From assembly GCA_965178125.1 (NCBI GenBank), contig OZ237735.1:1736001-1800000 (forward strand): a DNA stretch of 64,000 bases, written 5' to 3'. The translations under genes were made by a program, and so were the position numbers. A model generated the notes under the pieces. That model did not search any database and was not told the origin of the DNA. It worked only from the letters and a program-made list of their open reading frames with translations. The DNA is from Bilabrum cf. latius. Its lineage: Eukaryota. Below are positions 5-64,000 of the stretch, piece by piece (position 1 is the stretch's first letter; each line of letters begins with the position of its first letter).

Positions 5-2924
5 TCAAGATACCGATAGTAGCCTCGGCGAATCTCGATCAATCCACTCATCGTGAGACTTCGGCCAGCCTGGGAAATGGAGACGAACTAACCCATTTTC
101 CAGCACCGCCACAACCACGACGACGAACACCTCGCCAAGTTTCCCAAGCAGTCCGATTCGTTGCCTTTTTCTGATGGTCTACCTGGCAGATGAACTAAGA
201 GCGCCCCCGGCACTTGCTACTACGTTTGAGTCAATCCCACTGCTGGCGTTGTGGCCGCTGCTGCCCGATGCGACAGCACCCTGCACAGCCCCAGAGTGTC
301 CCCGGGCCAGCTGTGAGGACGAGGCACCAGAGCTGAAAGCACGTTTCCCCGCCTGACTCGGCACAGACGTAGGCGTAGCACTCTTGCTGTTCGGTTTCGA
401 CACAGGCAGGTCCGGGTCAAGGAGGCAAGGTACGATCATCCCCTCGGCACTCAGCCGGCACTGCCCGTCCTCCAGACCGCTGCGAGCCATGTAATTTTCC
501 TTCTCCTCGAGGTAGCCGCAAAGAGCATACTCTGGATGCCCAGGCACGGGTGGAGGCAATTCCACAGCGGGCTGCGATGCCATCAGCGCAGCTAGTGACA
601 CTGGTTGAGAGATGGAAGCACCAGACGATGCAGCCGCTGAGCCGTAAGAAGCTGACGAGGCAGCTGAAGAGCTCGAGCTGGACGACGTCGGCTTTGAATC
701 AGACCCAGCTCTGTTCCGCAAGGGTTTTGATAGGGACTCAGTCGCATCTGCTTTGCTCCCAACGGCGCTCAAACGTGCAGAGCTCCCCTGTGAGCCAGCC
801 GACACGTGATCCAGCGTGCCAGGCCGTTGCCCTGCACCCACCCGAGAACGCTTGGAAGCACGGCCAGAGCCATAGTCCCCCGATCCTATCTGCTCAGTCG
901 ATGGCGCACCGACAGTTGAATAGCTGGAATGCACCGCCTCGCTCGCCGTCGCTGCAATTCCAGCTAAACGCAAGCGCATCAGTTGTTTCTACTCAGAGTG
1001 GGTCGCCACCGATGATGTACCCACGCTACCAGGTGGTGTATTCGTTTCACGGACTTGCACGCAGTGACCTGCATTTGACAAAAGTACTGCCTTGGGCATG
1101 CCATGCGAGGGCCCTACATCAATGCTGCGTGCACTGCCTAGAGACTGTTCTGTGGCCTCAACAGCTGGATGGTGCCTGGCGAGCTAGACTTGGCTCAGCA
1201 TCATATCTCTGCTTCGCTTTGATCCTGTAAGTCTTTCACCTGCTTGCACACGAAAGAGATGCCCGCTCACTGAGCGAGACGCCTAAGAAGACGTGGGATG
1301 TCCCGTCGAAGTGCGCAGGCTCCGAAGCAGGTGTGCTGCCCTGCTGGCCACAGCAGCCAGCCCTGAAGATGGGCTGTAGATCTGCATTCGAGACTAACGC
1401 TGCGGCTGTTTGGGGCCCAGCATGTTTCTGTAAGTCGGGATGGTCCCATTGAGTGAGCCAGCCGATACCGAAGGGTCCTACTAGCTTGCCCGTCCGAGGT
1501 TGTGTCGGGCCCTCCAGTCGTTCCCTCCATGCATTTGTAGCCTCTGGTCAAAGCATAATACGCGTGCCCCTTGAGCAGAGGGCTACATCCCATTCTGGGC
1601 GCGTGTGTGAGTATCACGGGTCGTTGATGATGCGAGGCGAGTGCAAGAAGATATCGCTGCGGCGGATTCGGCTAGATCCCAAGACATGGCACTCTTGGGC
1701 GGCGTCTCTTGGAAACTGTCAGTCGAATGGCCCGATGCCTTGCTGCTCGCTTGGCTTCTGTCGTCGCCAGCCGATCCGTGTGCAGCCAGCCGCAGCCGCC
1801 TTTTCCGTTCGAACAGCACCATGGCCCGCTCCAGGGCAGGCACGTCAATGCGCACATTGTCGGGGCGGCAGTTGCAAGCAGTCTTCAGTGCTGCTCGACC
1901 CCACGGGAGCCAGTCCCACGTGGCAAAATTCACCGCTTCTGCCACGTTCACTCCGGTATTGAACCCGGAATGGAACGCAGCTGGGTGCGTTATGACATAC
2001 TCTCCAGGGTACTGCATGACTCGGCGGACCGGAATCCCGCTCGTCCGCAGGTGACTAGGCGAAATGACGCTAGTCTTGTGCCGTAGGAAGTGCTTGCAGC
2101 CCGTGTCCATCTGCGTCTCTGCCAGGAGTCCTCCTGCTTTCTGCTCGAATCGAGCCGCGTCGTCGGGTCGGAGGACGTACCAGAACTTTGGAGAACCCTA
2201 ATGGAGGTAGTTGATCGAAGGCAAGTCAACGTCCTCTTTGTGCCAGGCAAATGATGATCTCCAAGTTCCAATGTAGAGCATCGACCGGTTGATGCCAGGG
2301 ATGTCTTGGCCCAGCAAGGCCAGCTCCGTATCCAAGCGATCCAAGTTCCACCCCCCTGCTTCCTGGGAGCCAAATAGTGTTCCAGTCTGATCTGATGCAT
2401 ACCTTGGAGGAATTGATGAGGTTGTTAGTGTCCACCAATACCTCCTTTCTATCTTTTTCCACGGCACGGAGGCTGCGCTGGTGGAAAAGGCATACGAGGC
2501 AGATCGTAGGTGCAGGCTTGGACGGCGCACAGCGGGCGAGAAAGCATTGATGTATCTTACGAGATAGTGAGCCGCTATTCTAATTTCCCCATTCAATAAA
2601 TTTCAAAAGAGGAAGCTGCTGAGGCACGCAGTCTCGCATAGCTAGCGTAACTACCCCGGACCTTCCCAGCGGAACCTACTCTGTTGGTTTGACAGTGAGC
2701 TTGCGCAAGGAATCATTGATATTTTTGAAATCTGCAAATTCCTTGGGCGCAACAACCTTGACAACACCCTCTTCTCTAAATCGTGGGTTCGAAGCCACGG
2801 ATGACTGCAAAAAACCTCGCAGGCCCAGCTTGAACTCTTCCGCTGTTGGACGCAGAACCAAGCAATCCGTTGCGTCTGTTTCTGGTGACTGATCAAAGCA
2901 ACATGGGATCAGTGGGTCCTGCAT
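5..2924 (-). CDS. KDM4/JMJD2-like JmjN-JmjC histone lysine demethylase with C-terminal chromo-barrel/Tudor-knot-like domain; exons 2924..2561 and 2472..5; about 943 aa with TAG=Gln
   Basis: JmjN motif LVLRPTAEEF...GVVKVVAP. JmjC motifs IERRYW, GINRSMLYIGTWRSSFAWHKED, INYLH*GSPKFWY, CKHFLRHK, QYPGEYVITHPAAFHSGFNTGVNVAEAVNFA and CNC give the Fe ligands H-x-E...H and KDM4-type Zn ligands. Track ORFs 2198..2596, 1583..2110 and 179..979 share one frame, interrupted only by TAG (about 11 in the whole gene). Start ATG at 2924 (AAAACAATG). First TAA/TGA is TGA at 7..5, after VRLHFPGWPKSHDEWIDRDSPRL. Confidence 0.9.
2473..2560 (-). other. Spliceosomal GT-AG intron (88 nt, phase 1) in the KDM4-like gene
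   Basis: Donor C|GTAAGA at 2560 and pyrimidine-rich acceptor CCTTTTCCACCAGCGCAG| ending at 2473. Removing it reconciles the frame change between the JmjN exon and the JmjC exon (...GSLS-P-SVPWKKIERRYW). Confidence 0.75.
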
Positions 2925-3407: not shown

Positions 3408-6400
3408 ATGGTTAGGATAAATGTAGCGCTAGCCGCAATGTGGCTGGTTGTGGGGAGCTCAGCCAAGCTTGATTTCGCTGAGCTAGCTTTGGATTCTACC
3501 GCGGTACCAGAGGTATCCAGCGCACACGGTGAGTCCCTTCAATTGCAATTCCGGCGCAACTTTTGCTAGTCCAGCTTAATTATCGTCACACGTGATATTT
3601 TTCTGGTTTTCAAACGCAGTCGATGTTGATGATGTTGTGCAGGCCTCGGGGTGTCGCATGGCTTCGATCGTATCGCCATCTTCGTAGTGCGTCTCCACTA
3701 ATGGTGGCTCAGCATATGCACATGAATCATCGCACAGTATTACTACCGATGGCCTGACCATTGGCGCCTGGGTCAGGGTCTTTGCCGCTGATTCTGGCCC
3801 ATCGCGATCGGTCTCTGGATGCCTCATGGCCGTAGGTAGCCCGGCAAGCACCGCTCGCGCTGAAGTTGACCCCTATACGGTACCATCTATCTGTCTTGTC
3901 CATCGTGGAACTCATTCTAGCGATGTTGGTGGCAACGATGACTTTGATATAGGAGCCTACGCGTGGGCAGCGGGCGCTGGGCAGTGCCAACAAGCCACGG
4001 AGTCGTCTCTCTGGCCCTGCAGCGGCATCGAAGAGCCCCCAGCCCTTGTATCGACCAGCGGAGCTGCAGAACAGAGAGGTGGGCTACTCTCAGGGCAAGC
4101 TGGTGGGCGCGCTGTCCATGCCGGAAGCGGGGCCCGTCGAAACCGGTGGCATTTTGTTGCTGCCTCGTGGTCGGCGTCTGGGCAAGGGCAGGCCACTGCA
4201 ACGATGTTCACGCAGGGCCTCGGCCATGCTACTACGCAGATGCTTTCTGTTGCAACGGGAACAACGCCTCTAGCACTCGGCATACCATCGTCGCCTTGGA
4301 TCGTGGGCGCAGTGGCGAGCCCCCACACCGTAACAGCAGGGTCGACCGAGCGGCCGCAAGCGACACCCCTCCTGGGTACTCCATGGCTTAAGCTCGATGG
4401 TAGCGTCGGACTTGCGCTTGCGATTAGGGCAGAGGTGGCAGGTGCCTTTTTGTACGGCCGTAGCCTATCGCCAGACGCTCTCGCTACGTTGGCCAGCGGT
4501 AGATTGGCTGCGTCCGGCATGCTGCCGCCGCTAGCTGGGGCCAGCACATTTGGGCTCCGGTTCAGTGGCCAACGCTTATCAGGAAACGATGTGTTGGCAG
4601 GGTCACCAGGAGTCATTGTTGAGCTGCCTCACATGTCCACGCTTGCAGCGGTTCCAGCTGCGGACGGGAGCCCCTTCGGTGTTTCGCTCGACGTGACCGC
4701 TGACCGAGTCGAGGGTGCTCGGGCTGGGCACGTGATGATACTGCTCGAGCACGTTTAGGACGGGCAGCTTTCGCTGAGACTTTAGCTGCGGTCTGCAGAC
4801 TAGGATGGTTTGAGCAGCTCCCAGTACCGAGTTGAGGTGATCGCATGTCCTGCATGCACTGGCGGTACTGGCCGGCTGGTGCAGTGGACACCTGGCTAGA
4901 TCCTGACTTTCGCTGTTGATGGTGATCACACACCCAGAATGCGGCGACTTGAAGTGGCCTGGACTAGCGATGAGATATCTCTTGCCATCGACGGGCAGTC
5001 TGCTGCAATCACTGGAGTTGCGAACCTATCAACAGTTGCGACGCTTGGCCAGCTGCCGGCGAGAGCTTGCATCAGCAATCGCGATGGATGGGTCATCGCT
5101 GCATCAGCCTCTTGCTCTGCCTACTCCGCCGCAGAGAAGGACGCTTCCAGTTTCAGGGGATCAGTGTCTCGGTTTCGAGTCCTTGGTTGGCCAGACGCAA
5201 TTGCATTCCTTTCTGCAGCGGAGCAGGACAGGTATTCAGCAGGGATTGCAGCCATCTCCAATGCACCCTCGGTGCTTTCGCTCGATTTTTTGGCCGGTAC
5301 TGGAAGCCATTTGATTGCTTCATACAGTAACTATGCTTGGCCAGCCGCTGCACCGTCCACATAGACTGCTGCAAGCGTTGTATTCGAGGTTGTTGGTGCA
5401 GCATCGACCCTGCAGGACACCCTGGAGTCCATAGACAGCGCAACGCAAGGCCTGTTTGGGGACAATCTCAATGGCAACACTCCGAAGTGGTGCACCGTGT
5501 CAGCGGCTTCTGGTGCCTCTTTCACCAATTAGAGCATCCCAAGGGCTCTTGATGTGGCTGGTCTCTTGTCTACGAGTGGTAGGCTCGCTTTTGGGGGACA
5601 AGCTGCAGCTGCAGCTCGAGTTGTGTTATCTGCTCGCGAGCAAGCCACCACAGGGGTTGGCTTGGCCTTTGTACTGGACACAGATGTCGCCGTACGCTCG
5701 GCCGATGGGACAGGCTTGGTAGCAAACGCTTGCATCGAAGCAGCCGTCGGATCTTCTGCAATCAACGACCGACACGCGTGCCTCGCTGCAGTGGCTGGCC
5801 AGGCGCTTGCGTCCATCGGAATTCAGAAGATGGTTGTTGCCTCATCGCTCTTGTACCCTCAATCAGACCTGGCGAGCTGTACCGATCTTCAGTCTGCACT
5901 AAAGGTGGAATTTACGCAGCCGATCACTGGCGCAGGGAAACGGCTCGCTGTGGCTCGGGTTACCTAGTCAGTTGCAGTGTTGGCGGCCTGCTTCGATGGT
6001 ACTATCCTTGCTAATGTTGAGGTTGCAAGGCCATCGCTTCGCAGCAACGGCGAAGCCAGTGCATTTCTTTCGCTAGACGTGCACTTCCAGCGTGGGAACT
6101 TGAGCAGCAACGTGCTGCGATATGCGCCAATAGAAGCCGCAGAAGATGCCTTTTTGAGGCTGTCTGATCCAGTCGCTTCCGCCCTAAATGGCACTGGCAT
6201 TGATCTTTTGTCGGTGGCTGCACTAGCCTACACGACCGTGTCGTTTCCTTCAAGCTTGGCCACTAGCACCATTGACCTGGTTCAAATGCTGGGCACACAT
6301 GTTGCTCGCAGTTTGGACGAGACCTCGAGAGCTGCCAACTCGGAGTGCTCTGCGGCTGGGACTGGTGCCTACCAGTACCAATAGGATGCGATGGCCGTGC

Positions 6401-9400
6401 TGACAAGCTCACCAGCAATAGCGCTTACGGTAGCCCTGCGTCCCCCCTCCGGTCCTTCTTTGGCTTTTTCGCAACATGGCGGTCACAGCCGCTTAGTAAT
6501 GGGCAACGGTAGCGTGCCTCTGTTCCAAGCGGCCGATTTGGACGTTGGTGAGGGTATGGGCGGCTAGCTGCTTGCTGATCTCTCCGTGTCAGAGGAGTAG
6601 ATTTTCAACGGGACAGAATCACCGCTGGATCTGGAGCGGTCAATCGCAACAGACGCTTCAATCGTGTTGCCCACGTCAATGGAGGCGTGGGTTGGCAGGA
6701 AGGACCTGCAAGGGTCCGATACGGAGGGGCGTATGGTACGCCAAGCCCGATTTCGCTTCCGACAAGAGGGCAGCGAGCGCTCTGTGGGTAGTCTTAGCAT
6801 GGAGATGCCCGCCACTCCGAGGTCCTTGCGGAGAAACGGGGCGGGCAGTCTGCGGAGGGGTTTCCCGAGCCGCGCAGTGGTCGATGTAGTTGTGTCCGAT
6901 GCAGGCGGCAGCCTCGAGCAGGGCGCAACCGCTCTAGCCAGGCGCTCCAGTTTTGCTGTAGGGGTTCGATCGTGCAATTCCGAGCTGCGCCTTGCTCCAG
7001 GACAAGCCACTTTTCTTGCGCCGCTGCTCGATGCACATGAGGATCACGTGGTTGAGATCGGGCTAGAATCGGGTAGTGTCCCTGCAGCAATGTCAAGGTA
7101 TGCCTCGATCGAAGCGGCAGCTACCGCAGCGAGTGCCTCCAGCGAGGACGTCCCTGCATTGCCGTGGATTTGGTGCAGCGCAGGCTCTTCGCTCACCCCA
7201 GCCGTAGGCGCACGTTCAGCAGGTAGCAGCGTGTTTTGTCGCGTTCCGATGGACGCTATCATTGCACAGAATGCTTCTGCAACGAATGGCTTAATATCGG
7301 TACAGATGCAGCTTATAAAGGTCGCCGTTGACTCCGTGTGCACCTCGAGTAGCTAGCAATTACAATTGGCTATTGGTTCCCTGGCTACTGTAGAGGATAG
7401 CACCAAGTGCTTCTCTGACGGGCACGGATCGCTGCAATGGCAATTGATGCTAAACGCCTCTGCGAATGGCTTGCGCGATGATCAGATCGTGGTGTCATGC
7501 GAGCGCCCTGATGGAACTGCATTTGAAGGATTTGCCGTTTCTAGCTCCTCTCTCTCGCAATATGTTGTGGAATGTCCTTGCCGTGGCATGCTGGCGGTTG
7601 GTTCGGTGTTCGCAGGGAAGCTTGACGTTAGTGTTGGTCTCAGCATTGGACCACTCCGTGGCCTGGCACAGATCGCTTCGCACATGAGTGCCCATCTGTT
7701 GTTGAGTCCCAGGATAAACAGCGCCAGCCAAGATCGCTCCGGAAACTTGGTTCTGCATGGCCAGAACTTCGGTTTGCTCACCAAGCCAGTCTGCTGGATA
7801 GAAGGGCTAAGCTTGCCAGCCACTCGCGTGAGAGAGGGTATCAATTGCGGACCCACTCCCGCGATTGCATCGCTACATGGATTCAGGAGGTTGGATGGCG
7901 CCTGCGGTCCCGCTTGCCCCGGTCTCGCTGTGCTCGTGTCTCTGTTCGATGAAGGCTAGGTGCCTTCACCAGCATAGCACAGGGGTATTGAGCTGGTGGT
8001 GAGTCAAATGACTGGGTACGCATCAGCCGATAGAACCAGGCAAATCAGAATGGTGCTCCTGAAAGCACCTGCTATTGCTGGTCACTCTCCAACAGTCATC
8101 AGCACCGTGTCTCCAGTCCCAGTATTGCTCAGACTGTCGCTGCAAGCCAATGCAACATCTTGGGCGGAGGTGTAGTTAGGAAGAGTATTTTGTGCGTTTA
8201 GAGGCTAGCATGGAAATGAGACGGTAGCAGAAGGTAGATTGATCGAAGAGGGTGGCTATGTATCCGCGGCTTGCCATCCCCCTCGGCTTCCGGCCGGAAC
8301 GTACACTCTCAGCGTGCGACCAGCCGGTGGCATGCTCTGGGAGCCAAGCAGCGGCTTAGCCTCTGCTGTTTTGCGTGTGGTCTCCAGATCTGCTTCGTTC
8401 CGTGTAGCACCTGGCCAAGCCACCTACTTGACTGTGGCTGGCAACGACTCGATCGATTCTTCTGGTTTCGAGTTTGACCTAGATCACGATGGAGATGCTC
8501 AAGTATTTGAAGCAGGAGTGCATTGCTAGCTTCGATTCCAGTCATCGGATTCCAGCCATACATTTCGAACACCTGCTACTGTGCTGGAACCGGGAGTTGT
8601 GCGATGCCAAGCACCTCCGGAGGCACTACGAGGTCAGGGATCAAGCGAAAACTTGATGTATATCGTTGCTGCGCCTGGTTTGGCATCTGAAGATCTTATC
8701 AGGAGCCCATGGCAAGATACAGAGGCAGCTACAGTTCGTCTGACCTCGCCATTGAGTGTTTCTATTGACCCTGCTGCACTGACCATTAGTGGAGCTGGCT
8801 GGAGCAACATCACGTTCGCTTTGAACAGCGATTCACAATATGACGTCGTGTGCACTTTTTGCGGCTTCTATGATTCTCCTGCCGTGCAGAATTAGGACAT
8901 TTGGACCTGCAAGGCCCCATCCATGGCTACACTGCTGAATATCAGTCGCTGCCCCGAATAGGAAGAAGGCCAGCTCCAGCTTCGTGTGCCGTTTTCCGTA
9001 CGGCGGCGTCGCGATGCTTTGCAGCTCGCCCCCTAGAGAGCTGTTGTTTTGATTCATTCGGACGTCGTTGCTGATTTACGATCGACAGTCCCCGTGATAG
9101 CATCTGTGTCTCAATCTTATCAGCTTAATCTGGATGGGGTTGACGCTGTGCTTAGCGGGGCGAGCGCTGCATCTACTTCGACTTTGGTTGTCGAGTGCTA
9201 GACAAGTGTCGGTGCAATTGTTGCCGCTCGCGCAGAGTAGTGGACGACAGCATCGTCTGTTCCCATCGAGCTTCTCGAGAAGGATTCGAAGTGTCGACTT
9301 GGCTTGCGGGTGGGTGAATCTGTCATGTTTAGTCCGCAACACTTCAGGGCGGTACGTGTGGAGCCGTTTGCACCCTCCTACGAAGGCTCAATACTACGAT

Positions 9401-46577: not shown

Positions 46578-48788
46578 ATGATAATGGCATGCTGCTTTGT
46601 GCTTGCGGCGACACTCTGCATCGGGGTGATCAGCGAGCAGCCGCCTGCATGGCGGCCAACTTATCGACGGAGATCCATTTTAAAGTCTTCAGAAAGCAAT
46701 TTAGTGGACACTGGACCAGTTGAATTGACATCGCAGGAACAATAGCGGTGGCAGTCCAGATTTCCGTACTGGGTATTTGACGTATAGCCGATTCGCCGAA
46801 TACCGTGGTACGATCTGTGGCGTCCAGAGCATTGGCGGTATCGCAGGGGGCTTGTCCCCTTCATAACTTCTCGCGTTAAGTCGGATTGGGTTCCTACTTC
46901 AGACAACCGAGGCCTTAGGCTTGGAGTTCGCCAGTCATGGATGGCCGTCGACATTCTACGCACTTTTGGCAATGTTTATGGAAGTCTGAAAGTGACAAAC
47001 CTAAAAAATCGGTAGGAGCAGTCAAATTACACCAACATGGAATTGACAGTCGGGGATGCGATAGCATTAATGAGGTCCGAGGCGGAATCTCTCCTGAAGA
47101 CTAGCGAAAGGCAGGCCGCCAGAACTGGTTGGCGCGATGGCCTGGGGGTACACCCAGCGAATGGAACGAACGAAGTGCTCGACACTTGGTTGAGGTATGC
47201 TTGGCGGCGACGTGCAGAAACTGTTGTAGCCGGTGCATCTTTTGAGACCGTGCGGATGACCTAGCGTGAAAGGCGACCAGAGTCTTTGCCAGCCTGGGGT
47301 GCTATTGGCGGCATAGAGGCGCCCAGTATGGCACCAGGCATGTACATGCTTGCCAACATTGACGATTAGACATGGGAGTCTATCTCTGCAAGGTCTAGAC
47401 CTAATACTGAGCCTTCAAACAGCCAGGCTTTGCCCTGGTTTGCCTCGTCGGACGAAGGCTGGATGCAGTGGTGCCTACCTCGCTCTACCAACAGCACTCA
47501 TTCGGGCGACAGCCTAAGAGACTAGTTTGTTAAATCGTCATTCTGGCGGATGCTTACAATTGGTGCCCCTGGTGCCGGCATGCTAGCCCACAGGGACTCG
47601 CTACGAGTGTCTTCGTTCCAGCTGCAGCAGCGAGGAGCGAAGCGTTGGCTGCTGTGCCCTCCAAATGGCGCCCTATCCTCTTCTAGTCCTGGCGCGGGAA
47701 ATCATTCTTATATTGCGAATGACTAGGTGCTTCAGAGGGCTATTTAGCTAGGCATTGACATGACTGACATTCGCGAATCGGACTACGCCCGTCTTCCCCT
47801 GCTCCGCCGCCTGTCCAATTGCTTCGCCGTCGACGTGCAGCCGGGAGAGATGTTGTATTACCCAGCTGACTACTGGCATGCTACAGATACACGAGTAGGC
47901 CCATGGCGAGGTGCAGCTGTTGGTAGCGGTCCTTGGGTGGATGCGACCCTGGCTGCAGCGGCAAAGGCTGCAGGCCACGGCTATGCTCGCACAGCCGACA
48001 ACAACGTGAACGGACGGAAGGTGGACAACCGCCTTCGAGATCCTGCCAGCACAGCCAAGATTGGTGTTGCCGTCAGTGGTTCCATCATCAACACGGACAA
48101 CATGCGGGCCTCCATGCTCTCACTGTTCCGAATGTGCGCCAGGTCTGACGGGATGCAGAGTGAGTCTAGCGCGGAACTGTATAGCAGCCTCCTCTGCTAG
48201 TAGCTTGGCTCCTGCTTCGATTGGTGGGCCGTAGCATTTGGAGAAGGCTGGAACGATGCATGGCAAGCGTCTGGGCCAGTGGCTGCAACTCGAGCAATGC
48301 ACCATCTTCACCAACGCCAGCAATCGAACGTCAATACACAGGCGTAGCGTGCGGAAGAGTTGCACCTTGCGGAGCGCCGGCTTGCTCAGGACCAAACCGA
48401 ATGGAGAAGTCTGCTAACATTGTCTCAAAGGCCGGGTACATTGTCATTTGTCGACGCAAATTTTGCCGCAAAACTCGAGGCTAGTCGGTGGGGCTAGGAT
48501 GCAGTACGGCACGGGTTCCCCGGGACATGGCCTTCAAGTTAGTGGCCGAATCGAATGTCAAAGTCTAGTCCTCCTCAATGGAAACGGGTGCGGCGCGATC
48601 CAGTTCGCATGCATTCTGATGCTTCAGTCCGAGGGCCGATTCATTCAAGTGAGGACATTGGGAAAGTGTCTATCGCTGCTGGAAGTATCCAGTCTGAATG
48701 GGGTGTAACTGATGGACCAGACGGACCGATCGAGCTTGGGTGGACAGAGAGATACTGCGATAGGTTCAAGGACGCACCTGTGCATTAA
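46578..48788 (+). CDS. JmjC/cupin-like 2-oxoglutarate Fe(II) oxygenase with N-terminal signal peptide, about 736 aa (TAG=Gln), apparently single exon
   Basis: Frame 3 is open from ATG 46578 (MIMACCFVLAATLCIGVISEQ) to TAA 48786..48788, with only TAG interruptions, linking track ORFs 47037, 47760 and 48555. JmjC core WRMLTIGAPGAGMLAHRDSLRVSSFQLQQRGAKRWLLCPP...VQPGEMLYYPADYWHAT carries an intact H-x-D...H triad. The start could be the ATG two codons later. Confidence 0.8.
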
Positions 48789-49003
48789 GGGGTAAGTGGA
48801 ACGCCACAACTTCCAATAATCAAATCCGTTTTCCAGATCCAGGATGCTAAGTCGGGCTGGTGTCCACCGTTCGTAGTGGTCACACCATGCCAATCTAGAT
48901 CAGATTCCAAGATCGAAAGGTCATGTAGGCTGAGTTGGGAACTTCTGGAATGATGTTTGTATAGATATTTTCAGATTAACCTCAAGATTGCATCTTCTTA
49001 CAC

Positions 49004-55000: not shown

Positions 55001-58000
55001 TATTTCTGAGAGCACATCTTGACCTGGAAACACACGAAGCAATTGCAATACTCGCATGTGGAGTGAGTCACAAGCCGACAAGAATATTGACATCTCTGAG
55101 ATGCACGGTGATCGATAGAAATCGAATCCATTGCCAGAAGGCTCTGGAATGGCCGGATCAAGCTTGTCACTGCTGGCTGTGGAGCCACTATTGATAGCCC
55201 CGCGACCAATCAAGCGGTCCAGAGACGCCTCAATAGACGCATCGATGCCTGGCTCTGAAAGGACAACGCCTGTCCGCCGCTCAATCCTCGAATGGGCTCG
55301 GGCTTGCGTTGAAAGACTAGCAACTCGCCGGGCAACTGCAAATACTGCCGAATCACAAATCTCAGCGGTAGGCTCTGCCACGGTGCCTGCAGCACCATCG
55401 TACGTTGCAGCAAGGCACTCATCCGCGCACAGTGATGCCAACGCATTCTGGGTAGCCTATTGCCGAGATACTGCTGGTATTCTTCCTGCATGCAGCAAAC
55501 TAAAACTACTGGAGCCACCAGTCCTTCCAAACCCGAAACACTCCCATTGCAACCGAAGTAATTGAAATATGTCCTCGGGGTCGTCGAATAGATATGGCTC
55601 AGGCATGTCTCTCGATCCACTGACCAGTCCACTTTTGCCAGGCTCGGGTGCAGACTCCGAGGGGTCGTCGAAAAGATCCTCCTGGGTCTCCTATATCTCA
55701 GCATGCAAATGCCGATCACCGATCGCGTAATCTCGTAGCTGGTCTTCCTCAACTTGGTCCACCTCGGAACTGAACACACTGATTCCCATCTTGAAACTTG
55801 GGGCGGGCTCATCCCTTCTACGACGGATGTCATCAACTGCTGTAGAGATGTCTGAGCAGGTTGCGAACACTTCTTGAATCATGGCGGCAAAGTCCTCTCC
55901 AGAGCTCACAAGTGCTGCGGTACCCGCAACGCTGGACAAGTGTCGCAGCGAAGCACACCACTCTCGCAAATGACACCTTACTGCCTTCGAGGAGGGCCGA
56001 GACTTGGCCTGTGCATCGGATATTTCCCGCTGGTACTCTTTTAGAGCAGAAAGCAGGCGCCCACTTGCACCAGGACTGCCACCGGTTGCCTTCTGCGGAC
56101 CTGCCAGGCTGATGACACTCACAATTAATCTCCCTGCCGTCTACAGGGCATCCATGAGGGGCACTGCAACGTCACTGAATCCAAGGAGCGCAGATGGTGC
56201 TAAGACACTAAGGACTGCATCTACGGATGCAAGCGTAGATCTCAGCAGTTGATCGGTACCTCGACGCCTCTGGAACGCACCTTGTACACATTGTACTAGC
56301 AACGAGCTGCTTTCGATGCTTGTATCAAACTCAACCTGCTCAATGGGACTGCGACTTCGCAAAACCTCAGCGAGAGATGCAAGAGCCGCATCAGAGGAGA
56401 GCAGGGTTCTGGCAAACTACGCTTGCTCACGGAGTGAGTCATACTGCTGAGAGGAAAACGCGATAGGGTCCTCCTGCTGGGCTGCGGCGGCAGCCGCAGC
56501 AATGCCACGTGACTCAAATATGATCTCGTCATTGTTTTCCACCCTATCGAGGACCTCACATCGATGAGATCCAGAAAAACGCACAGTTGGAGCGTGGGCA
56601 AGAGACGATGGAAATCCGTTCGAGCTCGAAGCTGCCAAAATGGCTTGTTCAGCTAGGACAGCGGGTACCGATTCAGCCTTTTTCAAGTTGATACCAACTA
56701 GTGGCACAGCAATCGCTCCATCACTGCACCATTCACCAGCTTTTGCCTGCTGGGCAGCCCTGTCGAAAACCACGCGCTTGAGTCGATGCATCGCATCCGC
56801 GGCCTACTCTCGACGCATGCCTCCAAGCAGCTAGGCGTCAACAATAGAGAGCCTGCAAGCTTTATCAATTTGTATTTCACACGCTACAGTAGATGCTAAG
56901 AGGTCTAGAATCGTGCACGTTTCACTAGAGGAGGTCTGAATCCGCTCAGTAAGAAGAAGCAAGATTTCCGCCAGCAGCGACGTCCGACTCGGTGAATGGA
57001 ACTCTTCGCGGACCTCCTGCGCGAGACGGATCATGCGCGATGGGGGGCATTCTTCCGAGGTGTTCGCAGTACGCCTCAAAAAATCACGCTCAGGTACTTG
57101 CTGTGCAAGCGCTCGAAGTTGCCTGGACAAACGTAGACCCGCATGCTTGGTGAGCGAGGGCACCGTAACTGCGCTAGGCACCAGTGATGCAAGTCCTGCT
57201 AGTGTCGCAGCACTTCGTGACACATAAGCATCCAAATCACCGATTGTCCGGCTTACCGACCCCGCATTCTCTGCACCTAATATTATCTGCGACGCTTCCG
57301 AAGCCTGCATCCCGCTTAAACAGTCTCGACGCGACGCAACTGGAACTGCTGCATACGCTTGATCCAGTATGACTCGAGCCTCCAAGTTGTCTGCAGAAGG
57401 CTCATGATGAACTGCATGGCGCTCTTCTTGTCGCCGCAAGTAGTTCAAAAGCACCCGGGCTGGGCGAATAAGTTGCAACAGCTCTGTGGAAGTCCCTAGC
57501 TCGGGCTTGCTAGTCGCACGCCAGGTAGCGAGCATGCACAAGGCAGCCGCGACCCTCCATGCAGGCGCAAGTTCTGTAGACTGGATGGAATGGGCACTGC
57601 CTACAACACGAGATAGCACCGCAACAGCTGCTTCCTAGCCAAGCCGTATCTCATCCCTAGCACTGCTTGCGTGCCGCTCCAACCATTTTAACGAACTGAG
57701 AAGTCTGGCATAGGCACCCACTCTCGAGGACTACTAGCCAGACACCAAACCGAAGACCTGCTTACCGGCTCTACCAGCCGATGTAGGGGAAAACTCAACG
57801 TGGACTTTGGCTTCGTCCGCTGGTTCAGCATCGTCATTTTCTCCATGAAGATCGGATCGAATCCACTTTAAGAATACTACGCCTTCCTGTGCCTTGGAAT
57901 CGCCTGTTTTTGAGTCAAGGACGAACTTCGGACGCTACATTCGGGATGCAACAGACGTTGAAGTGTCAGCCTCTGCGCCATTCACAAGCTTCCACGCGTC

Positions 58001-61000
58001 TTCAGCTGGTAGAATATCCTGAGGAGATAGCCTTGTCAGAATTCCATCAACACCTGCGGAATAGCTTTGCAAGGCCCCATCAGTCAGAGCGCCGAGTCTC
58101 TGCCGAACTTCAACTTCGCGCTCAGTTTCGTCAATCTTCCTGAATGCTGAGGAACCAATGACGTATGCGATGGCCTCGGTCGCCTCATAGTCCAATCCAG
58201 ATGCTGAGATGCCGGACACTAGCTTGTGGAACATAGGTGCATCATCTACAGTCATCGCAGGAATTGAGAACCCCATATGAACAAGGCTCAAGTATTTCTT
58301 ACAAATATCGGTCGACAAGCTGCGGATGATCGGCAAAGGCTGTCCGACTGCTACCGGATCTTCATGTGGCGCCAAGGTCAGACTCACGTGAGCTAATCTC
58401 GAGCCAACTAACTTATCTACACTCTCTATAGCGTCTGAAGTAGCGCGCAAAAGCTCACTGTTGCCAGTACCAGTGACTTGAGCGAGACACTACAAGCAAG
58501 CAATTGATGCGAGACAGCTCGATGCGACATCAGGAGGCATGTCAGCACTGCTAAGAGCGTCAACTAGGTTGCGAATGCTAGCAGCTGCATCGCAGAGAGA
58601 AACATGCAGTCGAACCGCACCAAGCTGGCTTCCAGACGGTGCCAATGCAGTAAGAAAAGCTCTGAGCGTGAGCGAAGCAGTGCTCATAAGACGGTGGCCC
58701 AAAATGGCCTGCATAGAACCAGAAGCCGCACTTGAAATCACAGCCTCCGCAAGAAATGCAACAGACTGTGGTAACAAGTACGCACACCCGATTGCCTCCA
58801 CAGCTGCATGTGGTCGAAGCTGCAGGCCAATCGAACGGAATCTACCAGTTGCAACTGTTTCCAAGTTCGAGTATTCCTGTCGCCATAAAGAGTCTCGTAA
58901 TACAGGTGACTCAAGTCTCATGATAGTGTCGACGAATTCGACTGCACGGCTGCTAACACCAACTCCGTCTCCTTGAAGCAATATCTATATACTATCGGAA
59001 GACTGAAGCCCCAAGAGAATGGCTCCTATCGTATCAAAGCTCATAGAGCGAACGGAGGCTGGCAACTCATCAATCAGAACAGGCGCTTGCGTCGCTCTGT
59101 CGCTACCGACAACAGTCTTCGCCGCGATTGATCCATTCCCAGCATGTGTTACGGCACAAGCTTCGATGGCTCTACGAAAGCTGGAGACACCCAGCCAGCT
59201 GCAAGATCCCAGTGGTTCAGTGTGCATCTCCAAGCGTCTGCTTGCAGGCAGTGCGAGGCGTCCAGTAAGCAGACTTGGCAGCGCTGACGGTTCATCTTGC
59301 AGTACCTGAGACCACCTTGGAAAATGCGCCGGTAAGTCTACTCGTTCGGTTTGAACGGACACTTGAAGACTGGATTCATCGTTATCAGCGTCGACAGTCT
59401 CTACAGGCATTGCGATTTCAAGACATCGGTTTCGCATGGCACGGCTAAGCTCCGGACCGACACACTCTCTCGAGTCCACGTGTATATCTACAAGAAATGC
59501 AATACGAAACATTGGGTGTGTAGGGACAACCCGTGCTACACCATCAGCTGATGTACCACATTCAGGGATAGATAGAACACCATCCGGTTCTAGCAAGGCA
59601 TTAAGCCGATCGAGCACTGCCGGTGGCGCAACGTTTGCGCCTCGGATAACAAGCATCAGGCCATCGCGTACCGCCCGGGTGAGAGGTCCATCCACCCACA
59701 CGAACCTTCCTAAGTCTACACGCTCATTAGAAGACTGCTTTTGTCTCAACTGGCTCAACAGCCCCTGCAGGACCCGATAGTGATCCGGATCTGCATGGTT
59801 CATAGCTAGTGCAGCACATGACTCTGCACATACCCTGAGACTAGCAAACGTATCAACAGGTTTCACATCACTACGTGAGTCTGATACTGCTTGCTCCGAC
59901 ATTTGTAGTAGCTTACATATGCTAGTCGACAGTCGCACCCTTGCAGACGCACCACAGCTCGAGCAGAGCTGAGAGGCCACGACAGCAACCTCATGTGCCA
60001 GACGCAAAATCAGCTTCTGTGAAGCTGCAATAGGATTCACCGCAACCTACTCAAATGATCCAACCAAATCAGCTGCATCCGTTGAAGATGAGAGCTGCAG
60101 AACTAAATAATCAGTCTTATGCCCAGCGAGAGAAGCTGCCTGGCGGAGAGCAGAGAGACGTCTTGAACCTCCAGTTCCATATACCAGCAGTGGAAGCCTA
60201 GCACGTATGCCAACCATGCATGAAAGACAAACAAAACCCAAGTTCTTGGTTGTACCACCATCACCCGCGGCAAAATTGTTGAGCATTTCAGACATTTTCA
60301 CAATGAACTCGTTGGGGAGGCTTTGGTTGAAGCAGCGCGCAAACTCAATCGCAACAGTATTGCGGCCAGTACGCGACCTAAACCTACCTGCGAAGCACAT
60401 AAGTACAGCCAGTTGGAACGCAAACTGTTGCTACTGTGAAACGCTGTTTACTCGCTGGAGAGGTTGGCACGGCCAAAGCTACAGCAACGTCTGCATTGCA
60501 GTGCGAAGTCTACCGATGTCTCGCAGATTGAACTCAAACGGCGTTCCAGGCCCAAAATAGTCAACAGATGATCGATGAGACATGCTAGCTAAGCTTGAGA
60601 CAAAGCGGACCAACCGAGCAAGCGTGTCTTCGTTCCAAAGCGGCAAATGTGGACTTGCACCAGGAGTTGCCTGATCTGGCGAGAACGAATGTCTCAGAAT
60701 GGCAATGCTGTCTTCGGCCGCGAGCTCACGAAGGTAAACCTTCGAGAAACGGTTTAAGAATGACTTCGGTAGCTGCTTGCGGCCACCGCCTTGGCTCACA
60801 GGATTCTACGTCGCGAATACTCTGAACGTAGAAGGGCAATGGACCGTCTGCCCGAGCTCCGGGATGAACACGGAGGCGCGGTGGTCAAGAATCGCATTCA
60901 AGCCCTCCAAAACTGGCTATGGAGCCAGATTCAGCTCATCCAACAGCACCCAATCGCCTCGTTTTAAAGCAGCTAGGAGAACGCCATCTCTCCACACAAA

Positions 61001-64000
61001 ACTGCGATCTGCAGACTCCCCAGCAGAGTCAGAAGCAACTGGAAGGTCTGCACCAATCAGGTCAGCTATGTCAGTCTAATCACTCAAATTGATGCGAACA
61101 AGGGGATTTCCAGAAACGGCAGCGAGAGCCTGCACTAGGGAGCTCTTACCTACTCCTGGAGAGCCTTCGAGCAACACGGGCTGCGTGCTCTACAACGCTC
61201 GAAGCACCCTGCCAACGTTTGCTCGGACTGTTGGTGCATCGAACGCAAATGGGATTTCACCAACCGGTTTGGGCTCAACAGATCCATATTGGAGCAAGAA
61301 TGAACCAAGGCGGATTCCATGCGATGAGCCTGACAGCTCTCCATCAACTTCGCCGTCAAAAGCCGCTATGCTCCGCGAGAGAGTATCCTCACGTGCCGAG
61401 CCGCCGAGTCTTGCAATGAACTTGCATAATGTGTGTACACCGCTGTCTGTGCCTGCTTGCGCATCCACTGAGGTTCCAAGGCCGAACCCATCGAGCAGCA
61501 CAAGCGCAGCAGCGTGGCCGAAGCCCTCCCAAGCTCTTGCATCCAGGGTGGAGCTGGGTGAGCCAGCTGCACGTTGCTACGCGCAAAACTCAATTATGTA
61601 CTCGGCCCACTGTCGCACATCCCTTAATGTGAATGGAACGTGCTGCACGTCAACCATGCTCTGCAAAGAGTCTCCGTCATCGGAGCAGGCTTGGCTCGTA
61701 TACTGAATAAAAAGCTACCTCAGTCCACCCACCATCGATGTTAGCAGATCAGGGGGCAGCTGCAGCTACTACGCAAGCGATGCTTGCACAAATATCTAAG
61801 AAACGACTGCGTCAATATCCTCTGCTGAATCGATTTGTGGGACCCAAATCTCCGTGAACCTGCTTCGGAGGGCAGGGGACAGCTCTCGCTTCCCAAAATC
61901 ATCGCCTGGGTTCATTGTTGCAATGAAGCGGAATCCCTCCTTTGCCTTGACGTGGATACTATCAAGGTTTGAATCACCAGCACCACTTGAGGGCTCATCA
62001 GCCGAGCACCTCTCTGGAACAGTCAACTTCCGCTCAGGTTCAAGTACGCTATTGAGACGTTCCAAGACTGCATCTTCCGCCAGCGAAACTTCATCTAGAA
62101 GAAACATGCTTCCGTCAAGCATAGATTCAACCAAAGGACCATCAGCCCATTCGAATAGTTGCCTTGCGCTGTCACGACAGGACACAACAATGTCTCGTGT
62201 ACGCTCAACACTCGGATCTACCTCAGATTGCGGCTCCGAGGCTGCGGCTTCGCTTCTACCAGTGGCAGTTCTGCGAACCTTGGCGGCTTGGTGCTCCTCT
62301 AGCTGCTTGTCAGGCCGCTCACGCTTGTCACCCGACCTGTCGCGGTCATCATTGTCTATCAAGCGAAGCATATCATCGTAAGCCATCTAAGCAAGGTGGT
62401 CGAGCTCAGGTGGGGAGTCATCGCTAGTACGGGACAAGTATGCAAACACGGCAGTAGCGGCATCGTACTTAAGTTGCCTTCGTCGTTGAGCTCGAAGCGG
62501 GCGCATGCTTCCGATAAAATCCGTAGCGTCCATCGTCTAGTGGCAATTGACAATGCGAAGAGCCTGGTTCCTCAGCTTTGCGACAAACTGCACAGCACTG
62601 GTTTTACCTGTCCCAGTTTCTCCGACTAAAAGTACTGGTTCCTTGTAGAACATGCATTTAACGAGAAGCGCAACGACTCGCCTAAGCTGCTGGGTCCACG
62701 TCAGGTCTGGGAGCTCCTTCGAGTCCATGGTATCCGCAACCCTGCTATTGGACGTAGTAGAGGGGCTTGCTTGAGCGGGAGCAGACGCTGCTTTGTCGCC
62801 GTGCGCATACAAAGCAGGGTCTCCATACAGATCTGATGGACATAACGAGCACTTGCAGGTTCTTTGCAACACATCCATCAGCACGTTTTGCTCATCCTTG
62901 ACACGCAGCCGTTCTGCCAAGAGCATGTACCCACTGCAGCCAAGTTCTTGCCAAGTTGACGGCACACGGGCAGCCCAGCGCAGTAGGTCCCGTGTAGTAA
63001 CGAACGAAGTGCTTCCAGCAAATACGTCAGAAGCCTGCCGTGCACGCCGAAGCTCAGCAGCGACTCGAACCATTGCCTCAGCAAACGGAGGTGCAATATG
63101 AGACGACTTCACGATAATCTCCTTGAGCTCACTCTCAGGTGCCTCATCTACACGAAGTTCAAAAAATCGATTTCGAAACGCTCGGCTGAGGGGCTTCCTT
63201 CCACCGTATGTGCCGCCGGCCGGGTTCTAGGTTGCGAATAGCCTGAACCGCGGGGAAGCTCGCACAACCTCCTGAGTCTCCGGGATATAAAGCTCCCGAT
63301 TGTCGTCCAACAATCGGTTCAAAGCTTCTAGAACTTCTGTAGGTGCAAGGTTTAGCTCATCTAGCACAAGCCAAGCGCCCTACCTCGCAGCTGCGACCAG
63401 TACCCCCTCCTTAAACTCCAAAGAACCAGCACCAGTTGGCTAAAAAGAACCAAAATACTCACTAATATCAGTATTCTAGTGGTTGTTCACCCTATAGCAC
63501 ATGTTTCCGGTCCGGGCGGCGAGGTACTCAACAAGAGAGGTTTTGCCTGAGGAAGTGGGTCCCTGCAGGAGCACAGGAGACTTGGAACACGCTACGGCCC
63601 GGGCAAGGTTACGCAGATTGAATTGTACGCTCGCGGTCATGACATACCTGCGCTGTCCAGCTGCATCGTCTGCTGAGAACCCAGCTGCCCAATCGAGTGG
63701 CTCAGAATCACCGGTGGCTATGTCGAAGCAGTCAATTAAAACGCCGCTAGCCCGTACTTCTGGCACAGACATGTCACCGGGGAGGTTCGACACTGCAGAG
63801 TGGCAGGCGAGTACTAGCTAAGCATATCCAGCAGAATCGGTACCCGATGATCGAAGCTCACGCAAGAAGTCTATTGATTGCACGGCAGTACCTGGGCTCC
63901 CACGAGCGGTCTTCTTGGACCCCTTGGACTTGCGCTTCTTGGATTTGCCCAGGTTGGCTGTGTCTATAGCTGGCTGGATCTGCGTCGCGTACGCAGCGCA
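49004..64000 (-). CDS. MDN1: Midasin (Rea1/MDN1) dynein-related AAA+ ATPase for 60S ribosome maturation, 5'-truncated by the window edge; about 5,000 codons visible (AAA3-AAA6, linker, D/E-rich tail, MIDAS)
   Basis: VLLQGPTSSGKTS (AAA3), LLVGETGTGKT and FEWADGPLV...LLDEVSLAEDAVLERLNSVLE...FIATMNPG (AAA4), LLEGSPGVGKS and GGRKQLPKSFLNRF (AAA5), FVWVDGPL...VLDRLNALLE...ELSRAMRNR (AAA6), RWRRLELGSW, EGTGLGTGTG, an acidic tail, and MIDAS GDYRTGKRINMRRVIQYIAS*FRKDKIWLRR...LAIDDSKSM...YLDGYPFPFY. About 25 minus-strand track ORFs share this frame and each ends in TAG. Terminal TGA at 49006..49004. Confidence 0.97.
49030..49950 (-). other. MIDAS/VWA domain of midasin
   Basis: LCEKLRLILSPTKASRLAGDYRTGKRINM, DDSKS (DxSxS motif), LEVGQVGVVSFG, QLLFVISDG, YPFPFYVVV. 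Confidence 0.92.
50090..52000 (-). other. Asp/Glu-rich low-complexity tail region of midasin
   Basis: Track ORFs 50093, 50318, 50921, 51251 and 51851 are D/E/G/A-rich and lie between the EGTGLG motif and the MIDAS domain, as expected for midasin. Confidence 0.85.

What the first reader, a model, noticed from the sequence alone, without database searches (positions are those of the whole stretch)
5..64000. Nuclear genetic code variant: UAG reassigned to glutamine
Seen: all four genes, on both strands, are continuous frames broken only by TAG (about 136 in the giant gene, dozens in midasin, about 11 in KDM4, more than 10 in the second JmjC gene) and never by internal TAA or TGA over about 20,000 codons. 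In midasin the TAGs occupy FAT*NP (63227 and 60806), RINLSD*TD (61076), LNLAP*PVLEG (60917), RAL*STQPVLLEG (61190), VNCH*T (62537), GSFE*V (60047) and YIAS*FRKDK (49829). In KDM4 one occupies KPTE*V (2676). Established: the family motifs, as I recall them, are FATQNP, RINLSEQTD, NLASQSVLEG, RAMQ, HQ, FEQV, YIASQFRKDK and KDM4 PIQQ. Midasin is an essential gene, so pseudogenisation is implausible. Inference: UAG=Gln. Nuclear UAG=Gln with UAA kept as stop is rare; I know it from the fornicate Iotanema and some phyllopharyngean ciliates. This DNA is moderately GC-rich, unlike typical ciliates, so it may be an independent origin.
Basis: partly seen in the sequence, partly recalled or inferred. Interest (0 to 1): 0.96.

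Follow-up and report, generated by a model that had tools for sequence, protein, structure and literature searches.

The report
Nuclear code: UAG read as glutamine
This stretch of a compact, fairly GC-rich eukaryotic genome uses the stop codon TAG as an ordinary glutamine codon and stops at TGA and TAA, a rare code variant seen here in an organism that fits none of the lineages described with it.

Summary
With TAG read through, the window has four long genes: KDM4-like JmjC, a 14,197-codon giant gene, a cupin/JmjC-like gene and midasin. Together they hold 214 in-frame TAG and no internal TAA or TGA in 20,874 codons. They end in TGA three times and TAA once.

In a masked profile test on midasin, TAG scores as glutamine, 14.3 log units ahead of Glu. 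Four TAGs sit in columns that are Q in 56 of 56 homologues, and two more at 54 and 52 of 56.

The same DNA, without one changed letter, is in assemblies of four studies. Two of these look like transcript assemblies, which argues against U-to-C editing.

The code itself is known (UAG=Gln, UAA/UGA stop): Iotanema, Protocruzia tuzeti and two phyllopharyngean ciliates. Codon and stop usage, GC and contig size do not fit Iotanema or the described phyllopharyngeans.

The closest relative found is a metagenome contig (L007), which also has TAG-only frames. Midasin trees put the pair on a long branch near stramenopile-like sequences, but a ciliate affinity is not rejected (p-AU 0.062).

Verdict: a real reassignment and probably a further lineage with a known variant. 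The organism remains unidentified.

The parts
5..2472 (-). KDM4-like gene, exon 2 (JmjC domain, C-terminal MBT-like repeat), 9 in-frame TAG, stop TGA at 7..5
   Evidence: Pfam JmjC E 7e-33 and MBT E 4e-5. PDB KDM4A E 1.6e-53. Frame and codon counts.
2473..2560 (-). GT..AG intron, 88 nt, phase 1, joining the two frames of the KDM4-like gene
   Evidence: Read from the sequence. The spliced model has 943 codons with no TAA or TGA. No RNA reads were laid here.
2561..2924 (-). KDM4-like gene, exon 1 (JmjN-like), ATG at 2924, TAG at 2676-2674 and 2583-2581
   Evidence: Weak collinear match to the KDM4B/4D N-terminus, E 0.33.
3658..46251 (+). Giant single-exon gene of 14,197 codons with 136 in-frame TAG, stop TGA at 46249-46251. 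It has IPT/TIG domains, Cys-rich ephrin-receptor-like repeats, and a hydrophobic (read by eye as multi-pass membrane) and charged C-terminal part.
   Evidence: Pfam TIG E 1.5e-17 and Ephrin_rec_like E 3.5e-4. A 43,007-nt contig of run X5 ends at 46313.
46578..48788 (+). Cupin_8/JmjC-like gene, 736 codons from the ATG at 46578, 13 in-frame TAG, stop TAA at 48786-48788
   Evidence: Pfam Cupin_8 E 4.4e-11.. The choice of start is inferred.
49004..64000 (-). Midasin (MDN1) gene, 3' 4,998 codons. AAA3-AAA6, linker, acidic region and MIDAS/VWA are present; the 5' end lies beyond the window. 54 in-frame TAG, stop TGA at 49006-49004.
   Evidence: Pfam AAA_5 (5 stretches) E 5e-79, AAA_lid_7, VWA_2. 1,185 homologues..
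60806..60808 (-). TAG at the Q of 'FATQNP' (AAA5), Q in 56/56 homologues. Equivalent sites: 63227-63229, 60917-60919 and 60047-60049 (56/56), 61076-61078 (54/56), 61190-61192 (52/56).
   Evidence: DNA read.

Best explanation
The window is nuclear DNA of a compact, intron-poor eukaryote with about 54% GC. In it UAG is fully reassigned from stop to glutamine, while UGA and UAA still terminate (the code of NCBI table 15).

Shown here:
- TAG occurs in frame at about the background rate, in all four genes.
- TAG falls on invariant glutamine columns.
- TAA and TGA never occur inside genes and close all four of them.

Inferred from what is established for other UAG-only codes (PMC5304391, PMC11687900):
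- A tRNA-Gln with anticodon CUA reads UAG but not UAA. It probably arose from a tRNA-Gln(CUG) copy.
- The release factor eRF1 has lost most of its affinity for UAG.
- Decoding must be nearly complete. A gene with 136 TAGs would yield almost no full-length product otherwise.
For: Frames and counts:
- 214 TAG, 0 TAA and 0 TGA in 20,874 in-frame codons. Off-frame TAA+TGA is 2.94%, giving log10 P of about -270.
- In-frame TAG rate is 1.03%, against 1.18% off frame.
- TAG is 21.8% of Gln codons overall; per-gene shares worked by hand's counts are 20-34%.

Meaning of TAG:
- The profile was built from 56 of the 120 listed homologues, with TAG masked as X.
- Over 19 well-aligned TAG columns Q is best, 14.3 log units above E.
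- Q makes up 40.7% of the homologue residues at TAG columns, against 18.5% at CAA and 20.8% at CAG columns.
- Against its closest relative L007, 8 of 23 window TAG sites (35%) face Q. Canonical Q codons face Q at 24 of 77 (31%).

UAA is not sense:
- 0 TAA were seen where about 143 would be expected if it were used as CAA is relative to CAG.
- One gene ends in TAA.

Not an assembly error or editing:
- Contigs of four runs from four studies show 0 other letters and 0 indels over 44001-64000.
- X5 and X6 have gene-sized contigs that break at the gene ends (46313/46285 and 48981/48997).
- Depth in X5 and X6 differs several-fold between adjacent genes, as expected of RNA.
Against: - No tRNA gene is in the window and no whole genome is held. 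The decoding tRNA and eRF1 are therefore untested.
- The RNA nature of X5 and X6 is my inference. The tool labels X5 'probably DNA'.
- Only four terminators are seen, so a dual stop/sense role of UAG elsewhere cannot be excluded.
- The single-gene test mis-assigned 7 of 61 ordinary codons: ATA, ATC and ATG to L, CAA to E, and CAT, TGC and TGT weakly.
- 11 of the 19 TAG columns are not Q-dominated.
- The one TAG inside the JmjC domain aligns with F of KDM4A.
Confidence: 0.93

Rival explanations
1. Both UAA and UAG mean glutamine (table 6, as in many ciliates, hexamitins and some ulvophytes), and TAA is merely rare here.
For: UAR=Gln is by far the commoner variant (PMC5304391, passages). The motif scan found such midasin genes: L001 has 54 TAG and 40 TAA, L006 has 41 and 15.
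Against: There are 0 TAA in 20,874 codons against about 143 expected from the CAA:CAG ratio. The cupin-like gene ends in TAA. Read through, its frame would run 47 more codons (counted by eye in the printed sequence, no script) to a TGA near 48930, past the end at 48911 of the X5 contig that covers that gene. A TAA also bounds the giant frame upstream.
Confidence: 0.01
2. UAG is a stop in the mRNA sense, and the transcripts are edited (U to C) so that ribosomes read CAG.
For: None found.
Against: X5 and X6 look like transcript assemblies and carry the genomic letters at every covered site, with 0 differences listed. This is weak only because their library type is a guess and contigs drop rare variants.
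Confidence: 0.02
3. UAG is sense but stands for another amino acid (Glu, Lys, Leu, Ser, Tyr or pyrrolysine).
For: Other UAG meanings exist: Leu in the rhizarian exLh and in TARA phyllopharyngeans, Ser in Scotinosphaera (PMC11687900, passages). In the relative L007 my test gave K slightly above Q over 15 columns (dLL 2.3). L007 TAG sites most often face S in the window protein, at 6 of 25.
Against: For the window itself Q wins by 14.3 log units with posterior 1.0000. Six TAGs lie in columns that are Q in 52 to 56 of 56 homologues.
Confidence: 0.02
4. The genes are pseudogenes, or the TAGs are assembly artefacts.
For: None beyond the in-frame stops themselves.
Against: All four genes are affected, and by one codon only. 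Domains are intact. The sequence is identical in four studies. Midasin is a conserved ribosome-assembly factor (established knowledge).
Confidence: 0.005

Closest known systems
Iotanema spirale (Fornicata) nuclear code: UAG=Gln, UAA and UGA stop (PMC5304391, passages read)
   Same: The same codon change, with UAA and UGA kept as stops. The expected mechanism is the same: tRNA-Gln(CUA) and an altered eRF1 (T32G in Iotanema).
   Different: In Iotanema, UAA closes 104 of 119 genes and UAG is about 8% of Gln codons. Here there are 3 TGA to 1 TAA (P 0.007 under Iotanema's ratio) and TAG is 21.8% of Gln codons (P 4e-41). The nearest relative L007 encodes a carnitine O-acyltransferase, which is not expected in an anaerobe with reduced mitochondria (inference from general knowledge). 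No fornicate midasin was available for the tree.
Hartmannula sinica and Trochilia petrani (Phyllopharyngea, ciliates): UAG=Gln (PMC11687900, passages read)
   Same: The same code. UAG share of Gln codons there is 18.5% and 31.8%; here it is 21.8%. GC in the class reaches 53.6%.
   Different: - There UAA is the preferred stop and UGA closes 1.7-13.1% of genes. Here 3 of 4 genes end in TGA (P 0.008).
- Contigs described for the class are about 12-13 kb and telomere-capped. Here four genes lie on a contig of at least 130 kb with no telomere repeats in the window.
- The S1 Table with their GC and assembly sizes is a supplement I could not open.
Protocruzia tuzeti (ciliate): UAG=Gln (named in PMC11687900; original report not seen)
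   Same: The same code, as cited.
   Different: I have no data on its genome. P. adherens prefers CAA over CAG (2.91 vs 1.24%, table in PMC10942620), whereas here CAG exceeds CAA (460 vs 307). This candidate is not excluded.
UAR=Gln codes (NCBI table 6), e.g. spirotrich ciliates
   Same: TAG at the same invariant Q of midasin 'FATQNP' in L001-L006. L005 and L006 carry C4A4/G4T4 telomere repeats.
   Different: Those loci also use TAA in frame (15 to 40 times). The window and L007 do not (0).
Other UAG-only reassignments: UAG=Leu (rhizarian exLh, TARA phyllopharyngeans), UAG=Ser (Scotinosphaera)
   Same: UAG is uncoupled from UAA.
   Different: A different amino acid. Here Q is favoured over every other residue. 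Green algae group apart from the query (UFBoot 100 for the green clade).

Membership tests
UAG=Gln, UAA/UGA=stop nuclear code (NCBI table 15 type) | In-frame UAG in conserved, evidently functional genes | tested here: met
   214 TAG in four genes with intact domains.
UAG=Gln, UAA/UGA=stop nuclear code (NCBI table 15 type) | UAG positions correspond to glutamine in homologues | tested here: met
   Q is best by 14.3 log units over 19 columns. Six columns are Q in 52-56 of 56 homologues. 35% of window TAG sites face Q in L007.
UAG=Gln, UAA/UGA=stop nuclear code (NCBI table 15 type) | No in-frame UAA or UGA; both used as terminators | tested here: met
   0 TAA and 0 TGA in 20,874 codons. Terminators are TGA three times and TAA once.
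UAG=Gln, UAA/UGA=stop nuclear code (NCBI table 15 type) | UAG never used as a terminator | tested here: inconclusive
   None of the four genes ends at TAG, but four genes are too few.
UAG=Gln, UAA/UGA=stop nuclear code (NCBI table 15 type) | tRNA-Gln with anticodon CUA; eRF1 altered in its stop-recognition motifs | not testable with these tools
   No tRNA gene in the window or in L001, L005, L006, L007. No genome is held. eRF1 is not in the window.
UAG=Gln, UAA/UGA=stop nuclear code (NCBI table 15 type) | UAG present in the mRNA (no editing) | tested here: inconclusive
   Transcript-like contigs of X5 and X6 keep TAG, but the library type is a guess.
UAR=Gln code (NCBI table 6) | UAA also used as a sense codon | tested here: not met
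   0 TAA in frame against about 143 expected.
Iotanema lineage (Caviomonadidae, Fornicata) | Codon and stop usage as reported (UAA about 87% of stops, UAG about 8% of Gln codons) | tested here: not met
   1 TAA among 4 stops (P 0.007). TAG is 21.8% of Gln codons (P 4e-41).
Iotanema lineage (Caviomonadidae, Fornicata) | Phylogenetic placement among fornicates | not testable with these tools
   No named fornicate midasin was among the proteins returned.
Phyllopharyngean ciliates with UAG=Gln | UAA the preferred stop, UGA rare; small telomere-capped macronuclear chromosomes | tested here: not met
   3 of 4 stops are TGA (P 0.008). Four genes lie on a contig of at least 130 kb. There are no telomere repeats in the window.
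Ciliophora in general | Midasin groups with ciliate midasin | tested here: inconclusive
   IQ-TREE LG+G4+F and the PMSF tree keep the query apart from the spirotrich loci. FastTree joined them with SH 0.97. The AU test does not reject the union: dlnL 10.2, p 0.062.
Midasin (MDN1/Rea1) | Ring of AAA modules, long linker, acidic region, C-terminal MIDAS/VWA domain | tested here: met
   Pfam AAA_5 in 5 stretches, AAA_lid_7 and VWA_2 at 4744-4863. 36-46% identity to midasins of many phyla. AAA1 and AAA2 lie outside the window.

The most novel reading that the evidence does not exclude
The window organism and the environmental contig L007 form a so far undescribed, aerobic, fast-evolving eukaryotic lineage, possibly allied to heterotrophic stramenopiles. 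It reassigned UAG to glutamine independently of Iotanema and of the ciliates, after parting from a standard-code relative (P0172). Unlike every described UAG=Gln lineage it uses UGA rather than UAA as its main stop. That would be the first nuclear code change in or near the stramenopiles. It would also be a counter-example to the idea that such changes need an AT-rich genome with UAA-dominated termination.
Probability: 0.45. Interest if true: 0.75.

Novelty: new member of a known kind. Interest (0 to 1): 0.6.

Why it matters
Codes in which UAG and UAA part ways are few: four Gln cases plus Leu and Ser cases in the passages I read. They bear on how eRF1 and suppressor tRNAs co-evolve.

A further case would add an independent data point if it comes from a 54% GC genome that ends most genes in UGA and has a relative sharing the trait. 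It would help test codon-capture against ambiguous-intermediate scenarios.

It also gives a natural eRF1 and tRNA-Gln(CUA) pair of interest for amber-suppression work.

In practice, standard gene callers will shatter this organism's genes. The 14,197-codon gene and midasin would be missed or called pseudogenes unless table 15 is used.

Tried and rejected
Tools that gave nothing:
- Whole genome of the window: none held.
- tRNA scan of the window and of L001, L005, L006, L007: none found.
- Rfam at gathering score: no match.
- Bacterial-type promoter and terminator scan of 46200-49100: at shuffle level.

Attempts to name the organism:
- Protein searches returned no homologue above about 46% identity over long stretches.
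- The Atlas call on a database fragment (P0133) returned only generic VWA clusters.
- Run names are coded.

Run search: no RNA holder is listed on record.

Other steps:
- The search for related loci with alignment A1 failed because the query was over 5000 aa; I did not pursue it.
- My first motif pattern missed the window because of one extra residue. The corrected pattern hit it once.

Ideas considered and dropped:
- Amoebophrya sp. ex Karlodinium: AT-rich, with all three stops in frame.
- A green alga, suggested by TGTAA after two of three stops: the green clade excludes the query.
- Fornicate affinity for the clade that FastTree drew: the UAR members proved to be spirotrich-type nanochromosomes.

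Papers:
- Searches found no report of a GC-rich or stramenopile UAG=Gln lineage.
- The library lacks most subscription journals, and supplements were closed.
Full report
**1. The observation.**
With TAG read as a residue, the window resolves into four long frames:
- 5..2602(-): 865 aa, 9 TAG.
- 3580..46251(+): 14,223 aa, 136 TAG.
- 46443..48788(+): 781 aa, 14 TAG.
- 49004..64000(-): 4,998 aa, running off the window, 54 TAG.

Under the standard stops no frame exceeds 598 aa. GC is 52-58% in 4-kb bins.

In frame there is no TAA or TGA other than the terminal codon of each frame, whereas the two off-frames of the same stretches hold hundreds. With gene models (next section) the tally is 20,874 codons: TAG 214, TAA 0, TGA 0, CAA 307, CAG 460. 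At the off-frame TAA+TGA rate of 2.94%, the absence has log10 P of about -270. The in-frame TAG rate (1.03%) is close to the off-frame rate (1.18%), so TAG is not avoided. The terminators are TGA, TGA, TAA, TGA.

**2. The genes.**
- *Midasin.* Pfam finds AAA_5 in five stretches (E 5e-79), AAA_lid_7 and a C-terminal VWA_2. The window lacks the first two AAA modules.
- *KDM4-like gene.* The first gene has JmjC (E 7e-33) and an MBT-like repeat. It matches human KDM4A at E 1.6e-53. Its JmjN-like start lies in another frame. From the sequence I read exon 1 as 2924..2561, a GT..AG intron of 88 nt as 2560..2473, and exon 2 as 2472..8. The spliced model has 943 codons without TAA or TGA. No RNA was laid on it, so the intron is inferred.
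- *Cupin-like gene.* The third gene is Cupin_8/JmjC-like (E 4.4e-11).
- *Giant gene.* It shows only IPT/TIG domains and a Cys-rich ephrin-receptor-like repeat. A hydrophobic and then highly charged C-terminal part is visible in the translation.
- No tRNA gene and no Rfam family at gathering score is in the window.

**3. What TAG means.**
*Method.* From the 120 midasin homologues listed (of 1,185 scored), I kept 56. These were at least 4,500 aa long and shared at most a quarter of their 5-mers with any sequence kept before them. I aligned them and built a profile. I then aligned the window protein with X at every TAG, so that the alignment could not be biased. For each codon I summed the log emission probabilities of the well-aligned columns (posterior 8 or better).

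*Result.* TAG has 19 such columns. Q is best with posterior 1.0000, 14.3 log units above E.

*Control.* The test recovers 54 of the 61 ordinary codons. The misses are ATA, ATC and ATG to L, CAA to E, and CAT, TGC and TGT weakly. This shows the limits of one gene.

*Raw columns.*
- Q in 56 of 56 homologues at 63227, 60917, 60806 and 60047.
- Q in 54 of 56 at 61076, 52 of 56 at 61190, 36 of 56 at 54908 and 21 of 56 at 49829.
- At 62537, A 26 and Q 21.
- Q leads none of the other 11 columns, which include 62537.
- Overall Q is 40.7% of the residues at TAG columns, against 18.5% and 20.8% at CAA and CAG columns.

*Other genes.* In the KDM4-like gene the TAG at 2676 faces the second Q of 'PIQQ' of KDM4B, in a weak but collinear match (E 0.33). 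The TAG in 'INYLHxG' faces F of KDM4A.

*UAA.* It is not a sense codon. If it were used relative to TAG as CAA is to CAG, about 143 would be expected, and none is seen.

**4. Is it in the DNA and in the RNA?**
Eleven runs of six studies hold the stretch or part of it; their names are coded. I laid four of the 14 listed runs (X1, X5, X6, X7) on 44001-64000. No other letters, indels or joints were reported.
- X1 covers everything with one 130,137-nt contig at even depth. It may be the source assembly.
- X5 has a 43,007-nt contig ending at 46313. By arithmetic it should begin near 3307, which would span the giant gene. It also has a 17,773-nt contig beginning at 48981, which is midasin. The gene between them has only thin, broken cover (depth about 5-7 against 32-36).
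- X6 contigs stop at 46285 and start at 48997, and leave 46669-48002 uncovered.

Gene-sized contigs and several-fold depth differences between neighbours are what RNA gives. I therefore take X5 and X6 as transcript assemblies that keep TAG. This is an inference, because the tool marks their type as a guess and X5 as 'probably DNA'.

**5. Known cases.**
From passages of PMC11687900 and PMC5304391:
- UAG-only = Gln is reported for Iotanema spirale, Protocruzia tuzeti and, twice independently, the phyllopharyngean ciliates Hartmannula sinica and Trochilia petrani.
- UAG = Leu is reported in the rhizarian exLh and in TARA phyllopharyngeans, and UAG = Ser in Scotinosphaera.

*Iotanema.* It ends 104 of 119 genes in UAA, and UAG is about 8% of its Gln codons. 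The window's 1 TAA in 4 stops (P 0.007) and its TAG share of 21.8% (P 4e-41) do not fit.

*Phyllopharyngeans.* UAA is the preferred stop, UGA closes 1.7-13.1% of genes, and the contigs described are about 12-13 kb and telomere-capped. Here 3 of 4 stops are TGA (P 0.008), four genes lie on a contig of at least 130 kb, and the window has no telomere repeats.

*Amoebophrya sp. ex Karlodinium.* It is AT-rich and has all three stops in frame.

*Literature searches.* Six searches found no report of a GC-rich or stramenopile lineage with this code.

**6. Relatives.**
I scanned the metagenome contigs for the midasin motif F-x-[LV]-F-A-T-TAG-N-P...G-G-R-K. Seven loci came back.

*L001-L006.* They use both TAG and TAA in frame and are 50-70% identical to one another. 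L005 and L006 carry C4A4/G4T4 telomere repeats, so they are spirotrich-type nanochromosomes.

*L007.* It has GC 51.8% and a 3,611-codon frame with 41 TAG and no TAA or TGA. It is 46.6% identical to the window midasin over 2,272 aa, the best long match found. It shares TAG with the window at two Q columns, one of them by the design of the scan. Upstream it has a carnitine O-acyltransferase gene in two frames, with in-frame TAGs.

*Meaning of TAG in L007.* This is not settled. My test gives K slightly over Q (dLL 2.3, 15 columns). Its TAG sites face S (6 of 25) more often than Q (2 of 25) in the window protein. In the other direction, 8 of 23 window TAG sites (35%) face Q in L007, like canonical Q codons at 24 of 77 (31%).

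**7. Placement.**
All trees use midasin only.
- *FastTree, 57 and 67 rows.* It put the query on a long branch with unnamed, mostly GC-rich environmental sequences. No source names them. Their best named hits are oomycetes at 43-45%.
- *FastTree, 71 rows, 1,174 columns, loci added.* It joined query+L007 (SH 1.0) to P0172, P0186 and the spirotrich loci (SH 0.97).
- *IQ-TREE LG+G4+F, 42 of those 71 rows (29 dropped for time).* Support values were: query+L007+P0172 100; with the GC-rich clade 97; with P0138 83; with Hondaea+P0175 85; with ochrophytes and oomycetes 45. Green algae stand apart at 100.
- *Site-heterogeneous model (LG+C20+F+G4 PMSF, quick search).* It gave query+L007 100 on a stem of 1.32 and P0172 as sister at 91. 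The group sits inside a 22-row assemblage with oomycetes, ochrophytes, Hondaea and the GC-rich clade (SH-aLRT 82), with its position there open. The spirotrich loci are apart on a stem of 1.77.
- *AU test.* It does not reject query+L007 plus the spirotrich loci as one clade (dlnL 10.2, p 0.062).

No named ciliate, fornicate, rhizarian or haptophyte midasin was in the set. The lineage is thus unresolved. It is not a green alga. It is weakly stramenopile-like. A ciliate affinity is disfavoured by genome features but not excluded.

P0172 was called as an unbroken 5,494-aa protein by its source, so it presumably uses standard stops. That would date the change to the stem of query+L007 (inference).

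**8. Mechanism.**
The shown part is the decoding outcome. The inferred part follows the cited papers:
- A tRNA-Gln(CUA) pairs with UAG but not UAA. It is one anticodon change away from tRNA-Gln(CUG).
- eRF1 no longer competes at UAG.

With 136 TAGs in one gene, even 95% read-through per site would give under 0.1% full-length product. Reassignment must therefore be essentially complete.

**9. Verdict.**
The observation and the reading UAG=Gln are confirmed. The code is a known kind. The organism, together with L007, is probably a further lineage carrying it, and it differs in relying on UGA stops and in its GC. That rests on four terminators and one marker gene.

Noticed in passing
window 3658..46251 (+): A single uninterrupted gene of 14,197 codons (about 42.6 kb), among the largest protein genes known to me. 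It has IPT/TIG domains, Cys-rich ephrin-receptor-like repeats, and a hydrophobic and then highly charged C-terminal part. Run X5 has a contig of 43,007 nt ending 62 nt after its stop, as if the whole gene were one transcript.
   Followed up: partly
L001-L006 (metagenome loci): Midasin genes with both TAG and TAA in frame: L001 has 54 and 40, L006 has 41 and 15. L005 is a complete 13,967-bp molecule with C4A4/G4T4 telomere repeats at both ends, and L006 has them at one end. They are single-gene nanochromosomes of spirotrich-type ciliates carrying a 12-14 kb frame free of TGA. L006 has 57% GC.
   Followed up: partly
L007 116..2706 (-): The closest relative's contig has a carnitine O-acyltransferase gene (Pfam E 1.4e-62 and 8.5e-23) split over two frames, with 10 in-frame TAGs. 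The split is probably an intron. The meaning of TAG in this organism is unresolved (K, Q or S).
   Followed up: partly
window 46252..46285 and 48981..49003: TGTAA lies 19 nt after the giant gene's stop and 2 nt after midasin's stop, just upstream of where the transcript-like contigs end. The third gene has GGTAA instead. It may be a UGUAA-type polyadenylation signal, known to me from green algae, although the trees exclude a green alga.
   Followed up: no
window 48789..49003: The convergent cupin-like and midasin genes are 215 bp apart. The transcript-like contigs end at 48911 and 48981, so the 3' untranslated regions are very short (about 23 nt for midasin).
   Followed up: no
window 40545..42419 (-), 43393..45590 (-) and others: With TAG read through there are long antisense frames (up to 624 aa) inside the giant gene. 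I take them as a by-product of codon bias in GC-rich coding sequence, not as genes.
   Followed up: no
run list: The same sequence, at or near identity, is held by runs filed under at least four different coded organism names in different studies. 'Algae metagenome' and 'protist metagenome' runs hold small shares. The organism may be a frequent companion or contaminant of other cultures, or may be filed under several names.
   Followed up: no
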